A stretch of 63,983 nt of DNA, counting the filler, from Collodictyon triciliatum (lineage: Eukaryota), in the NCBI GenBank assembly GCA_043381765.1. It is 14 parts of 14 records of this genome, joined end to end, with 100 filler letters (N's around TTAATTAATTAA, not from the genome) between each part and the next. Parts side by side here need not be neighbours in the genome. Positions count along the whole stretch, not along the records: positions 55,422 to 60,528 come from JBHJMP010005479.1; 13 more parts are not named here. The stretch is one strand, 5' to 3'. Both the position numbers and the translations under genes were made by a program. Of this stretch, positions 57,384 to 62,222 are shown in pieces (the stretch's first letter is position 1; each line of letters opens with the position of its first letter). The notes beneath the pieces are model-generated. The model did not search any database, was not told the origin of the DNA, and saw only the letters and a list, made by a program, of their open reading frames with translations.

Positions 57384-59673
57384 TTAAAAAAGGCCAAATT
57401 TCTGTCGGAGATTAAGAAGCGATTTGACAATCGACACAGCACTGTTTGATGAGTATCCGCCACTGGGAACCATAACAATCGGGATGTCTCGGGTGAAGGC
57501 ATATTCAAATACAAGCTCGTCTCTTTTGATAACTCCATCAATGGAGACAGACAGTTCACCTTACAAAATAGTAGAGATGAAGATAAAAAAAAAAAAAGAC
57601 GGAGAAAAATTTAAGACAATCTCTCGGATATGATACTCTCTGTGTTAGTGTCACAAGGACATAGAAAATCGTTTGAATATCATAGATTAAGCAGTTGTTT
57701 AACATAACCTTCCAAATTAAATTTTTTTTTTGGAAAATGATGAATGGTAGTTACCTATGGCATCGCCTTCCAATACGTCTGTTCCAGCGTTGTAGTATAT
57801 TATATCAGGGGAGAACTCTTCAAAGGCCTTTTTTTATTACAAAAGACGAATAGAGGAATTATTGTAAGTATTTTTACCAGTATTAAATTATCACTGGTTG
57901 TTTTTTTTAAAAAAAAAAAAAATAGTTCTACCGTCTTAATAGCATATTTTAGTCGTGCAAGGTATACATCATCCTTTGTACCAGGTTCAAGTTCAATCAT
58001 CTAGAATTTAGCAAGCAAGAGTTAGAGAAAGGCATGTCGATGGGGAAAATAATAAAATTAATAATATAATTCAAAAGACAATAATATTAAATAATCATTG
58101 GAAATATGGTAATAAAAGGAAAATGTCACATCTGCTAAAAAAAAAAAAGAAGCTTTTTTGTGGCAAACGGATAAAAGTTTGAGAAACTTTATGTCAGTTT
58201 CGTTTACCTGCTTGATGGCTTTCTTCGCAAAATGGTCCATAGGATAATTTTGATAATTATAAGCATCAAGAATGTAGATATTGGGATCATCCATCCAAAA
58301 GCGTTCAAACCCATTTCCCTACCATTTATTTTGCGTAAGTCAGTAGCAAAAAAAAAAAAAAACGAAATCGTCTGAGTTAATGTACAATAGAGTGAACGAT
58401 GTGCCGTAGAGTATGCTACTATCGATCATATTCGAAATACCTGGTGTGCGTCTAAATCGATGTACATCATTTTTTTCAAGTAAGGATAAGCCTGTTGCGC
58501 CAGAAGCCATGAATAGGGTATATCACCAAACATGCACCAACCACCTGCGCTTGTTGGAGTACTATGATGAAATCCTGAAAAATATTGTCCTCATCAAAAT
58601 TCGTTCGTGAGAGAAAAATAGACAATAGGCAACACAATACATCAACCAGCAAATTGGCGTAGCCAAGATAGACTCGTACCTCCTCCTAGATTGAATGACC
58701 AGCCGCGTTGAATAGCAAAGTGTGTGGCGACGATTGTTCCTGCCATAGCGACCTTCATAGGGACTACAACCTTTACTCGCCATGAAGTACATCAAATTAA
58801 ATCATCGAGATGTTGGATAAGAGAATACTGGTTATAGGAGCCCAGCTATCGTGCATTTGTTCACTGCGCTGGATATATGATTCATATCCTGAAAGCTCTT
58901 GAATATGAATGGGAAAGCTACCTTAGATTCAGTCAAAAAGTATGGGAACATCGCTATGGGAGGAAATTCGCAGACATGTGCAACGCCGGCCGAAGATGAT
59001 ATGAATCGGAGATAATCCTCAGAATGTATGAGGAGGAGATCATCTCGAGTTGGAACACTCCTTGTGGTAGGAAACTGATCTTCCTTCAATATCCTGCATA
59101 TAAATTGTAAGAGAAAATGGTGAGCTCACCGTTCTGATAGAAAAAATAAGGTGTAAAAACAGTCAGCTATACGAATAAGACCTTTAAATGATCAAAACAT
59201 GTAAGAAACTAAAATGCAAGATGTGTCATAATTGTGCTTTTCTCAGAGGTATTGCTGCACAAAAAAAAAAAAAAATCTAAGGGTTCAGAGTAATGCTAAA
59301 TATCTGGTAAACACTCACTTGTGTTCGTGCACAAGGGCATTTCGTATGCGCCGATACTTTTTCGTGTCAAACGAGTGAAGATTTTCTATGCCTTTATAGA
59401 GCCCATACTTTGATTATTTTTAACATGGTAAACGTCTGTCACAGTCGAGGTAAAAAAAAAAAAAGAGGGGGATGTGGTCTCGATTGAATTAATGCAGAGA
59501 TATGTCCGAACTGCCCCAATAATAATAACAATAACAATAACAATAATAATAATACCCCAAAACGAGATGTTTACAGCATCGTGGTAGATGATCGGCACTT
59601 GATCTTTCCTCAAAGGAGCGGTGAAGCGCTCATAAAATGGAAAAGCAGCGTCCTCCTTACTTGCAGCCTCCAT
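57384..59673 (-). CDS. HDAC11: Class IV histone deacetylase (HDAC11-like), multi-exon
   Basis: NISFWGIENLHSFDTKKY, NLGG/GFHH, GGWCMFGDI, YIDLDAHQ/GNG, YNAGTDVLEGD, RDELVF, MVPSGGY. Confidence 0.9.
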
Positions 59674-59944
59674 CTGTCGAAATGATGAGGCTTCAGTATT
59701 TGTGAGCAGTCCTCGACTATGCTTTCTGCCTTTCGCTCGGATTTGCGCGAGGTTCATCGGGCAAAAAGCCTCACAAGCGCTGTTTTTTCCTGTTTTTTCT
59801 TTAATTTTTTTTTTTTGGCTGTGAATAGGAATTTATTCGCACGGATAAATTTCAAATCATATACATATTTGGTATCATTAACGTTCTCCGCAGAAGCGCT
59901 TTTTATTATGTGTTTGATGCGCGAATTGGAGTCATCACGTATTT

Positions 59945-60072
59945 TCTAGGTCTACTGGAAGGGGTATATCACCTTTCGATTGGTAAACTTGGTGCGCCAG
60001 TATCCAAGATCTCACCACTTTTTTTACATGGTTATGTAGTGGTGAAGGCTGCCAGGAAAGACCCGACAGCCT
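59945..60072 (-). ncRNA. Candidate Fanzor omegaRNA scaffold
   Basis: Three abutting stem-loops starting at the nuclease stop codon: 60072-60046 (11 bp with two G-U pairs), 60045-60012 (8 bp + 4 bp), 60002-59953 (UACUGG/CCAGUA closing stem). Confidence 0.5.
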
Positions 60073-60528
60073 ATTTTTTAGAGGAAGGTGTATGAATATT
60101 TTGAATAATTAAAACAACTTTGTTGAGTATATTTATGGCGCTGTTAAAGTCCCTGTCAAGAATACAGTTTGTTTGCTTTCTGGGCGATTGCATTCTTTAC
60201 ATATGAGACATCTATACACTTTTTTTTTGAATTTCCTTTCGGTGTCATATATTCCAGTTCTTTTTCGCAGTTACGACTCGTCTTGGACGTTCTAAATTCA
60301 TCTGCACTTACTGTCTCAAAACCTTTGGATAGTATTTTTCGTAATCCTCTTCCGATTGTTGGCATAAAATGGTTCGTTCGACAATTTCTGCCCCAGTCTC
60401 CATACGCCAGTACAACATCCTCGCCAAATGTCTTTTCGATTCGGTTCATAAACAATTGTTCACTTCTTTTTGTATTAACATACTGTCTCCATCTCATCTT
60501 ACGAAAAGTTACTTGCCCATAAAATCTG
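60071..60528 (-). pseudogene. Fanzor (Fanzor1-like, TnpB-derived RuvC nuclease) C-terminal fragment with two frameshifts
   Basis: FYGQVTFRKMRWRQYVNTKRSE..VVLAYGDW (RuvC-I), DEFRTSKT(S)RNC (RuvC-II + Zn finger), shifted VYRCLICKEC, shifted RDFNSAINILN (RuvC-III). Confidence 0.85.
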
Positions 60529-60746
60529 NNNNNNNNNNNNNNNNNNNNNNNNNNNNNNNNNNNNNNNNNNNNTTAATTAATTAANNNNNNNNNNNNNNNN
60601 NNNNNNNNNNNNNNNNNNNNNNNNNNNNATATTCTCGTCATGGATTTGAAAAAAAAAAAAAAAAGGTGAGAAATTAGATCGAAATGAGAGCCATTCTCAT
60701 TTCCATGGCCATTGATGTCGCCATCACTACTTTTGAAATGTACTTT

Positions 60747-61312
60747 ATCATCACTTTCATCACCACCACTTTCATCATCATCACTTTCATCATCATCACT
60801 TTCATCACCATCACTTTCATCACCATCACTTTCATCATCACTTTCATCACCATCACTTTCATCACCACCACTTTCATCACCATCACTTTCATCACCACCA
60901 CTTTCATCATCATCACTTTCATCACCACCACTTTCATCACCACCACTTTCATCATCGCCACTTTCATCACCACCACTTTCATCACCACCACTTTCATCAC
61001 CACCACTTTCATCATCACCACTTTCATCATCATCACTTTCATCATCATCACTTTCATCATCATCACTTTCATCACCACCACTTTCATCACCACCACTTTC
61101 ATCACCATCACTTTCATCACCACCACTTTCATCACCATCACTTTCATCACCACCACTTTCATCATCATCACTTTCATCATCATCACTTTCATCACCACCA
61201 CTTTCATCACCACCACTTTCATCACCACCACTTTCATCATCACCACTTTCATCATCACCACTTTCATCATCACCACTTTCATCATCATCACTTTCATCAC
61301 CACCACTTTCAT
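60747..61312. repeat. 15-bp minisatellite (CTTTCATCAYCAYCA)n in an intron
   Basis: Direct inspection; generates spurious DESGG / MKVVV ORFs. Confidence 0.92.
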
Positions 61313-61347
61313 CCACACACAATAAGAAAAAGCAGGATGCAAGAGAC

Positions 61348-61938
61348 CTGGACCACTGCGCGAGGCCAGTGCCCGTCAGGAATCCAGCCGTCGTGGTCGA
61401 GGACGTCGACGAAGAGGGTGGAGGGCGGGGCGGGCGGGGCAGACTTTGCGAGGAAGGGCTGGCAGAGCCTGGGGAGGGCGAGGGCCTGGGCAAAGAGCAG
61501 GGGGCGTGCGGGGCGGGGCTGGACCAAGAGCAGCAGGACTCTGGGGGCGGAGGCTGCGTGCGTGCGGGGCAGCGACGCGAAGAGGGCGGCGGCCGTCTGC
61601 GCCACGAGGTCCGGGCGGGCGGGGCTGTTTGCGCGCGAGGACGCGGCGTCCACCGTGGCGACCGAGACGGACTTGACGGCGCCATCACGGAGGAACGGCA
61701 CGAGCACCTGCTGCGCCTGCGGCTTCTGCTGCTCCAGGAGGCTCTGCCCGAGCGGGCTGTCCAGCGCCTCCCCAAACGCCGCCAGGCTGCCGTGCGACTC
61801 CAGCGTGCGCCGCACCCCGCTCCCCTTCTCCTGCAGCTGCGGCAGCGTGCTTTCGCTGCACACAACAAGCACGTGGTCCACCGCCCCAAAGTTCTCTGCG
61901 ACGCAGAGGTTCACAAACTCGACTCGGTCTGGCCGCAT
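61348..61938 (-). CDS. First exon of an M17 aminopeptidase, NPEPL1-like N-terminal domain
   Basis: SSRANSPARPDLV..LFAQALALPRLCQPFLAKS resembles the NPEPL1 SRHNSP..ALARAFPLF pattern; GT donor after VVQ; catalytic domain not in contig. Confidence 0.55.
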
Positions 61939-62222
61939 CGCTCCTGAGGTGCTCTGGTGAGTGTGGAGTCTTTTGTTTTCGTTCATGCTTTTTGTTTTTT
62001 TTGGTATTTTTTTGGTTTTTTGGTGGTTTTTTGGTTTTTTTTTGGTTTTTTTTTGGTTTTTTTGGTTTTTTTGGTTTTTTTGGTTTTTTTGGTTTTTTTG
62101 GTTTTTTTGGTTTTTTTGGTTTNNNNNNNNNNNNNNNNNNNNNNNNNNNNNNNNNNNNNNNNNNNNTTAATTAATTAANNNNNNNNNNNNNNNNNNNNNN
62201 NNNNNNNNNNNNNNNNNNNNNN

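What the first reader, a model, noticed from the sequence alone, without database searches (positions are those of the whole stretch)
59930..60072. Structured omegaRNA candidate directly downstream of the Fanzor stop
Seen (minus strand): AGGCUGUCGGG-ucuuu-CCUGGCAGCCU (two G-U pairs that work only on this strand), UCACCACU-ACAU-aacc-AUGU-a6-AGUGGUGA, then UACUGG...UUACC-aaucgaaa-GGUGA...CCAGUA, followed by GACCUAG. Known: TnpB/Fanzor guide RNAs are encoded at the 3' end of the gene up to the transposon end, and the flanking DNA supplies the guide. Inference: the element ends near 59947-59953, and the next ~15-20 nt would be the guide. The CTAG could be a Helitron-type end, but this is unproven.
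Basis: partly seen in the sequence, partly recalled or inferred. Interest (0 to 1): 0.8.

Follow-up and report, generated by a model that had tools for sequence, protein, structure and literature searches.

The report
Dead Fanzor transposon's guide-RNA end

Summary
The hairpins are real and strand-specific (z -3.8 versus -1.4). They end one dead copy of a decayed, ~3.5-kb Fanzor1-only element with hundreds of relatives in this genome. Stems 1 and 2 keep pairing through double changes in giant-virus Fanzor1 relatives, supporting an omegaRNA scaffold; copies within the genome show almost no covariation. The cited stop is a minority allele (TAG 42, CAG 71 of 138), so the RNA overlaps the ORF end. 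A canonical Helitron is disfavoured: 8 of 30 two-ended copies pass a target-duplication test (0.85 expected; clearest cases 11-14 bp), and ATAA recurs at +7 to +10 of the flank. Most two-ended copies show no matching duplication, and a junction-anchored test was not significant. The guide may start after the duplication, near 59941. Expression, binding and the transposase are untested. The scan noted this family before on other contigs. Side finding: copies are linkage-free mosaics.

The parts
60071..60528 (-). 3' part of a broken Fanzor1 ORF (RuvC-II DEFRTS, zinc finger, RuvC-III RDFNS spread over three frames); cut upstream by an assembly gap
   Evidence: three frames; 67% identity over 102 aa to intact P0002, E 2e-48; P0002 hits GtFz1, PpFz1 and SpuFz1 chains at E 2e-28 to 4e-23
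60071..60073 (-). TAG cited as the stop; minority allele of a CAG codon
   Evidence: CAG 71, TAG 42 of 138 copies; P0002 continues KKQAVG
60046..60072 (-). Stem-loop 1 of the putative omegaRNA (11 bp)
   Evidence: in the window plus 4 viral relatives 8 of 11 pairs have a change on both sides, 96-100% of cells paired
60012..60045 (-). Stem-loop 2: 8-bp outer stem, inner hairpin, A-rich bulge, directly abutting stem-loop 1
   Evidence: a model built from viral sequences only picks exactly 60012-60045, but at E 0.3 and rank 2 of 3
59988..60008 (-). Possible 5-bp stem CUUGG/CCA(A/G)G whose loop holds the ACU(A/G)G that can pair with the terminus; predicted only
   Evidence: centroid; U-G 91 and U-A 39 of 138 at the variable pair; no double changes
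59969..59986 (-). Terminal hairpin with GAAA loop, weakened in this copy
   Evidence: loop inverted (TTTC) in 20 of 138 copies
59955..59965 (-). Right terminus of the element (family CCCCTTCTAG, here ACCCCTTCCAG); last base 59955
59942..59954 (-). Host flank; probable right copy of a 12-13-bp target duplication (T at +1, AGAAAA at +8 to +13). The left copy is not in the assembly, so it is inferred from the family pattern
   Evidence: the flank occurs only at this copy and one duplicate
59927..59941 (-). Candidate guide if the duplication is part of the scaffold (alternative: guide starts at 59954/59953)
   Evidence: Inference from PMC10711439 section 27; not tested

Best explanation
The stretch is the DNA template of the omegaRNA scaffold at the right end of a non-autonomous, Fanzor1-only DNA transposon of about 3.5 kb, in a dead copy. 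Shown here: position, boundary, fold, cross-family covariation of stems 1-2, a Fanzor1 ORF with the full catalytic set in intact relatives, no transposase in the element, decay of the copies examined. Inferred from characterised Fanzor1 systems: a transcript running through the ORF end into the flank is trimmed to a ~120-nt scaffold plus ~15 nt of copy-specific guide, binds Fanzor1, and cuts empty alleles so that the element is copied back. Inferred from anatomy: new insertions were made in trans by an unidentified transposase that needs both (dissimilar) ends and duplicates an oriented 11-14-bp target of the form T-N(5-8)-ATAAA. ATAAA next to the left end is then the likely TAM, and the guide most likely starts after the duplication.
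For: Boundary: AG|T in 28 of 30 aligned copies; information falls from 1.5-1.8 bits to 0.26 at +2 in 86 non-redundant flanks (87 of 107 ends could be anchored). Covariation: 86.7% of 150 cells paired, 11 of 19 pairs with double changes, 0 of 500 shuffles, slid controls 36-59%; stem 2 in 14 viral sequences alone: 6 of 8 pairs. Protein: D364, E555, D604 and four Cys invariant in 30 homologues; solved Fanzor1 hits. Duplication: 8 of 30 versus 0.85 expected, p 2e-4; 8 of 35 versus 1.84, p 5e-5; ATAA within +5..+14 in 54 of 116 right flanks versus 4-18 in five downstream windows; left flanks end A-T-A-A-A in 9, 9, 12, 12, 12 of 16. Internally deleted copies keep both ends (for example L028, L145, L172, L205; L179, L200).
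Against: No expression, processing or binding data. Among the genome's own 138 copies there are only 36 double changes in 5738 cells, and paired columns are not better kept than unpaired ones (0.898 versus 0.893). The structure was set from folds of these same sequences, which favours it, and stem 1 rests on 5 sequences. A sequence-only viral model missed the locus; the structured one found it only at E 0.3. The 3' half has no demonstrated homologue in the viral RNAs. About three quarters of two-ended copies do not pass the duplication test, and the junction-anchored test on the 16 of 40 copies that my pattern could call gave p 0.42 (p 0.014 on 19 copies). No transposase partner was found.
Confidence: 0.85

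Rival explanations
1. The element is a non-autonomous Helitron (or another HUH, rolling-circle element): the last hairpin and CTAG|T are the terminator, and the duplications are the non-canonical kind reported for Chlamydomonas Helitron2 and Replitron-1. This would change the carrier, not the omegaRNA call.
For: Hairpin about 11 nt before CTAG|T; left junction reads A|T in 12 of 16; right ends outnumber left ends among first-look candidates (334 versus 163 and 84); the genome holds RepHel matches (3 of 3 candidates); variable duplications are described for CRe-1,2,3 and Replitron-1.
Against: The left end begins TTT(G/C)CA, not TC; three RepHel loci (four stretches) share only microsatellite or T-run matches with the element, and CTAG|T sites at two of these loci sit behind other, GC-rich hairpin-like sequences; duplications occur at full-length left ends, whereas CRe elements lack them there; ATAAA on both flanks is unexplained by an A|T insertion without duplication.
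Confidence: 0.15
2. Copies spread by target-primed copying from the right end (LINE retroposition of the Fanzor mRNA, or aborted Fanzor homing), which would give a precise right end, a fuzzy left end and variable duplications.
For: Precise right and fuzzy left junctions; variable duplication length; fillers at some left junctions (L089, 44 nt).
Against: Of 25 copies with a break in homology, 3 scored >=9; by eye these are two internal deletions or rearrangements (L179, L034) and one match inside the element's own left part (L203), so no truly left-truncated copy showed a duplication at its break. No poly(A) tail and no carried-over parental flank.
Confidence: 0.07
3. The hairpins act only as DNA (transposon-end structures) or are by-products of the coding sequence, and no guide RNA is or was made.
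For: No covariation among the genome's copies; recurrent loop inversion suggests hairpin formation in DNA; no Rfam match (2 chance hits elsewhere).
Against: G-U-dependent strand asymmetry; the same stem 1/stem 2 layout with different sequence in mariner-ended viral elements with other termini; transitions that keep pairing outnumber those that break it, 80:52 and 92:54 (cells are not independent, weak).
Confidence: 0.06

Closest known systems
Fanzor1 omegaRNAs of SpuFz1, GtFz1, PpFz1 (Saito 2023 PMC10432273; Xu 2024 PMC11423790; passages read)
   Same: Structured RNA from the ORF end to the element end, followed by copy-specific flank; stem-loop 1 first, several further stems as in GtFz1 (150 nt); GtFz1 is the best solved hit of P0002.
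   Different: No inverted repeat at the end; stem 1 is predicted at 11 bp (7 bp in the structures); no intact copy seen; a long target duplication lies between end and probable guide.
Mariner-type Fanzor1 elements of giant viruses (loci L214-L238, 32-47% identical to P0002; PGv-1 group of Bao and Jurka 2013 named from passages)
   Same: Homologous protein; stem 1 abutting stem 2 with an AAAAG bulge; ORF reads into the RNA.
   Different: The viral RNAs run on about 50 nt further to a conserved ...GGTGTA end; this family has another, shorter 3' end (CTAG) and an 11-14-bp duplication in some copies.
MCi-2 of Mucor circinelloides (Bao and Jurka 2013, PMC3627910 section 12)
   Same: Unclassified Fanzor1 element without TIRs, 11-12-bp duplications with a fixed AT-rich motif plus free bases, fuzzy 5' ends.
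   Different: Motif as written there is ATAATTNNNN(N); here T-N(5-8)-ATAAA; 11 young copies there, hundreds of old ones here; no Crypton fragment here.
CRe-1,2,3 Helitron2 elements and Replitron-1 of Chlamydomonas (PMC3627910 sections 8-9; PMC10288648 passages)
   Same: Variable-length duplications, oriented insertion, one precise and one fuzzy end.
   Different: No asymmetric TIRs or terminal direct repeats noticed; duplications at full-length left ends; no shared termini with a HUH element found.

Membership tests
Fanzor1 omegaRNA | Lies at the 3' end of a Fanzor1 gene | tested here: met
Fanzor1 omegaRNA | Scaffold conserved among copies up to a sharp element end, flank variable beyond it | tested here: met
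Fanzor1 omegaRNA | Stem-loop structure conserved by covariation | tested here: met
   Stems 1-2 across viral relatives; not among the genome's own decayed copies; 3' stems untested across families
Fanzor1 omegaRNA | Expressed as a discrete RNA extending ~15 nt into the flank | not testable with these tools
   Only assembled contigs, none on record as RNA
Fanzor1 omegaRNA | Binds Fanzor1 and guides TAM-dependent cleavage | not testable with these tools
   Needs biochemistry
Active Fanzor1 locus | Intact ORF with D-E-D triad and C4 zinc finger | tested here: not met
   Window copy split over three frames; longest Fanzor-coding open stretch without N among 107 copies scanned was 271 aa, against 648 aa for P0002
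Helitron1 | 3' subterminal hairpin and CTRR end before T | tested here: met
Helitron1 | 5' TC start | tested here: not met
   Left end reads TTT(G/C)CA or TCTGCA in the junctions called
Helitron1 | No target-site duplication | tested here: not met
   8 of 30 and 8 of 35 two-ended copies pass the duplication test; most copies do not, and one search was not significant
Helitron1 | Termini shared with a RepHel-coding element | tested here: inconclusive
   None shared at 3 RepHel loci, which are partial and partly read N
Tc1/mariner or other TIR transposon | Terminal inverted repeats and fixed short duplication (TA) | tested here: not met
   By eye only 7 of 12 terminal bases are complementary; duplication 11-14 bp
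MULE / Crypton as trans partner | Matching transposase in the genome | tested here: inconclusive
   PF10551 and PF00589 gave 0 matches in an incomplete assembly
LINE-retroposed element | 5'-truncated copies with duplications and a 3' tail | tested here: not met

The most novel reading that the evidence does not exclude
Because the duplication (11-14 bp) is as long as the guide that SpuFz1 needs (plateau near 13 nt), a filled allele of this TIR-less element still holds a near-complete target in either guide register: at the left junction if the guide starts at +1, or at the right junction if ATAAA is the TAM and the guide starts after the duplication. The family's Fanzor would then have cut next to its own copies, and repair from non-allelic copies would have produced the damaged left junctions, the unmatched flanks and the linkage-free mosaic of lineages seen here. 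That would be a self-targeting OMEGA system that scrambles its own transposon family, carried by an unidentified transposase with oriented T-N(5-8)-ATAAA targets.
Probability: 0.1. Interest if true: 0.7.

Novelty: new member of a known kind. Interest (0 to 1): 0.35.

Why it matters
As an omegaRNA at the end of a dead Fanzor1 copy it is ordinary. Its value lies in the family: more than 100 independent insertion flanks give a target logo, a TAM prediction (ATAAA-like) and a test case for an open point, namely how Fanzor1 guides are set in elements with long duplications and no inverted repeats (MCi-2-like), whose transposase is unknown. An intact natural relative (P0002, 62% identical to a copy's fragment) makes the predictions testable.

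Tried and rejected
Rfam scan of 59300-60530: 2 chance hits outside the feature. Pfam gave no match over cut-off for the Fanzor fragments or P0002. An exact 8-mer search found no duplications and my first reading of 14 two-ended copies was 'no duplication'; both missed decayed matches and were superseded. Junction-anchored tests depended on a poor junction caller. P0002 found no loci in viral or metagenome contigs and a stem-1 pattern found none in metagenomes, so P0002's own RNA could not be compared as DNA. A sequence-only viral model did not find the locus among 84 matches up to E 10. No RNA holder listed; two runs guessed to be RNA cover the element with other copies' variants, which shows nothing about expression. 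No empty paralogue of this insertion site (2 of 2 candidates are filled). No transposase ORF seen in the left 1.4 kb of 25 full-length copies, by reading translations without a family scan, nor in 6 copies that leave the element early. Three loci picked by a terminal pattern were ordinary copies or were interrupted by another repeat, not a partner element. The terminal pairing ACU(A/G)G with C(U/C)AG is a double change in the window copy, but only 4 double changes occur over 4 pairs in 138 copies and the duplicate L002 lacks it, so I do not count it. Literature searches: Fanzor+Helitron, Fanzor+target site duplication since 2023 (93), Fanzor+non-autonomous+terminal inverted repeats+lack since 2024 (105), Fanzor+self-targeting (112), Fanzor+gene conversion (114); the listings showed no paper on this family or on self-targeting by long duplications, and most listed papers were not opened. 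No supplementary files were read; Bao and Jurka's additional files and Xu's Table S3 may bear on the MCi-2 and GtFz1 comparisons.

Full report
Observation. The strand folds at -47.3 kcal/mol, z -3.81; the other strand at z -1.44. The signal is carried by the first two stem-loops; 59954-60030 alone is no better than shuffles. Rfam has nothing for it.

The gene. Upstream lies the 3' part of a Fanzor1 gene, split over three frames and cut by an assembly gap at 60529. It is 67% identical over 102 aa to P0002, an intact 648-aa metagenomic protein, whose best solved relatives are GtFz1, PpFz1 and SpuFz1. The catalytic D, E, D and four cysteines are invariant in 30 homologues.

The family and its right end. 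The DNA query had 334 first-look candidates, 40 scored; a 137-aa query had 594, 150 scored; an exact 22-mer occurs 76 times against 0 for the control. 38 of the 40 scored matches stop at or before query position 201. 28 of 30 aligned copies end in AG followed by T. In 86 non-redundant flanks (87 of 107 ends could be anchored; the anchor contained the T, which inflates 83 of 86) information drops to 0.26 bits at +2. The last element base is 59955. 33 near-complete copies are 91.6-93.3% identical to their majority sequence, no copy scanned has a whole ORF, and the RNA region is no better kept than the ORF; the tree of 130 copies is star-like. Full-length copies are about 3.3-3.7 kb, start with TTT(G/C)CA and a (GTTT)n tract, and show no second ORF.

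Structure. It is met one level out. 25 giant-virus loci with 32-47% identity to P0002 were fetched. The nearest fold into an 11-12-bp stem abutting a second stem with an inner hairpin and an AAAAG bulge. On the window plus 11 viral sequences that I chose for this region, 86.7% of cells pair, 11 of 19 pairs change on both sides, 0 of 500 shuffles reach this and slid controls give 36-59%; on 14 viral sequences alone stem 2 has double changes at 6 of 8 pairs. Caveats: the structure came from these sequences, and stem 1 rests on five. A viral sequence-only model missed the locus; with stem 2 imposed it picked 60012-60045 exactly but at E 0.3.

How it inserted. With no junction assumed, the first 10-14 flank bases match the left-end region better than other copies' flanks in 8 of 30 copies (0.85 expected, p 2e-4) and 8 of 35 with gaps allowed (1.84 expected, p 5e-5). 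The clearest sit at or next to the junction: L142 13/14, L170 12/13, L140 11/12, L091 11/13, L172 11/13, L179 11/13. Right flanks have ATAA starting at +7 to +10 in 50 instances among 116 flanks, and within +5..+14 in 54 of 116 against 4-18 downstream; left flanks end in A-T-A-A-A. One duplicated target T-N(5-8)-ATAAA explains both. Against this: most two-ended copies match only in the motif, and the junction-anchored test on 16 of 40 callable copies gave p 0.42; it failed to call most of the best cases. Internally deleted copies keep both ends, and left-truncated copies show no duplication at the break, which points to a DNA transposon rather than target-primed copying. RepHel loci exist but share no terminus; MULE and tyrosine-recombinase searches were blank. 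The carrier is unclassified; a non-canonical HUH carrier is not excluded.

Mechanism. Shown: position, boundary, fold, cross-family covariation, decay. Taken from the literature: SpuFz1 RNAs extend 14-15 nt past a conserved scaffold; Fanzor1 RNAs of insect viruses extend ~15 nt beyond the duplication, which is read as scaffold; the RNP is thought to cut empty alleles and restore the element. Inferred: here the TAM is ATAAA-like and the guide starts near 59941, or else at 59954/59953. In both registers an 11-14-bp duplication leaves a near-complete target in the filled allele, since SpuFz1 activity plateaus near 13 nt of guide.

Unexplained. In 96 colinear copies (of 118), 66 of 1439 columns have a second allele at 20% or more (median 4%), yet mean r2 is 0.011-0.013, about 1/n, beyond 10 nt. 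P0002 carries the minor residue at 11 and the major at 16 of 58 coding sites (25 neither, 6 synonymous). The copies look like fine-scale mosaics of older lineages, which could also account for unmatched flanks. Site-rate variation and alignment error were not modelled. Self-cutting is the boldest reading of this (probability 0.1).

Papers. PMC3627910: abstract, passages, sections 8, 9, 10, 12, 15. PMC10711439: passages and section 27. PMC10432273, PMC10530073, PMC11423790, PMC10288648, PMC13565253: passages only. No supplements. Helitron1 'A|TC...CTRR|T' is partly recalled and partly.

Verdict. A real omegaRNA-scaffold relic of a known kind, in a dead copy, already noted by this scan on other contigs of the genome (152 notes fit the look-up). 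Interest 0.35, mainly for the family's target pattern and mosaicism.

Noticed in passing
family-wide, last 1.5 kb of 96 copies: 66 high-frequency second alleles in linkage equilibrium beyond 10 nt; the copies look like mosaics of older lineages.
   Followed up: partly
window 59978-59973 and homologous loop in other copies: The terminal hairpin loop is inverted (GAAA to TTTC) in 20 of 138 copies and these are scattered on the tree, suggesting recurrent micro-inversion or exchange.
   Followed up: partly
full-length copies, about 55-60 nt upstream of the Fanzor ATG: AAAATTGA, which I recall as the mimivirus early promoter motif; would fit a giant-virus origin of the gene.
   Followed up: no
L002 = G000:C9878; L046 and L004: The window's insertion and its flank are duplicated elsewhere in the assembly at 95-96% identity; L046 and L004 also share a flank.
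   Followed up: partly
run X3 contig over window 59820-59997: One environmental contig (5 differences in 178 letters) bridges the element-flank junction, so this insertion or its duplicate occurs outside the assembly.
   Followed up: no
L026, L030, L158, L161, L292: A second repeat with an A-rich tail has inserted repeatedly into these elements, once inside the RNA region.
   Followed up: no
L288 (G000:C6377), L289, L291: A Helitron RepHel frame open for over 1000 codons apart from N stretches, and two CTAG|T sites behind GC-rich hairpin-like sequences unrelated to this element.
   Followed up: partly
window 59389-59757 and 58835-59089, minus: Exon-like frames downstream of the element that recall a histone deacetylase (from memory); Pfam gave no supporting match.
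   Followed up: partly
window 60740-61986, minus: GC-rich frame with a weak M17 aminopeptidase N-terminal match (E 9e-4, below cut-off) followed by a long 15-nt GAT/GGT-GAAAGT tandem array, on another contig than the Fanzor copy.
   Followed up: no
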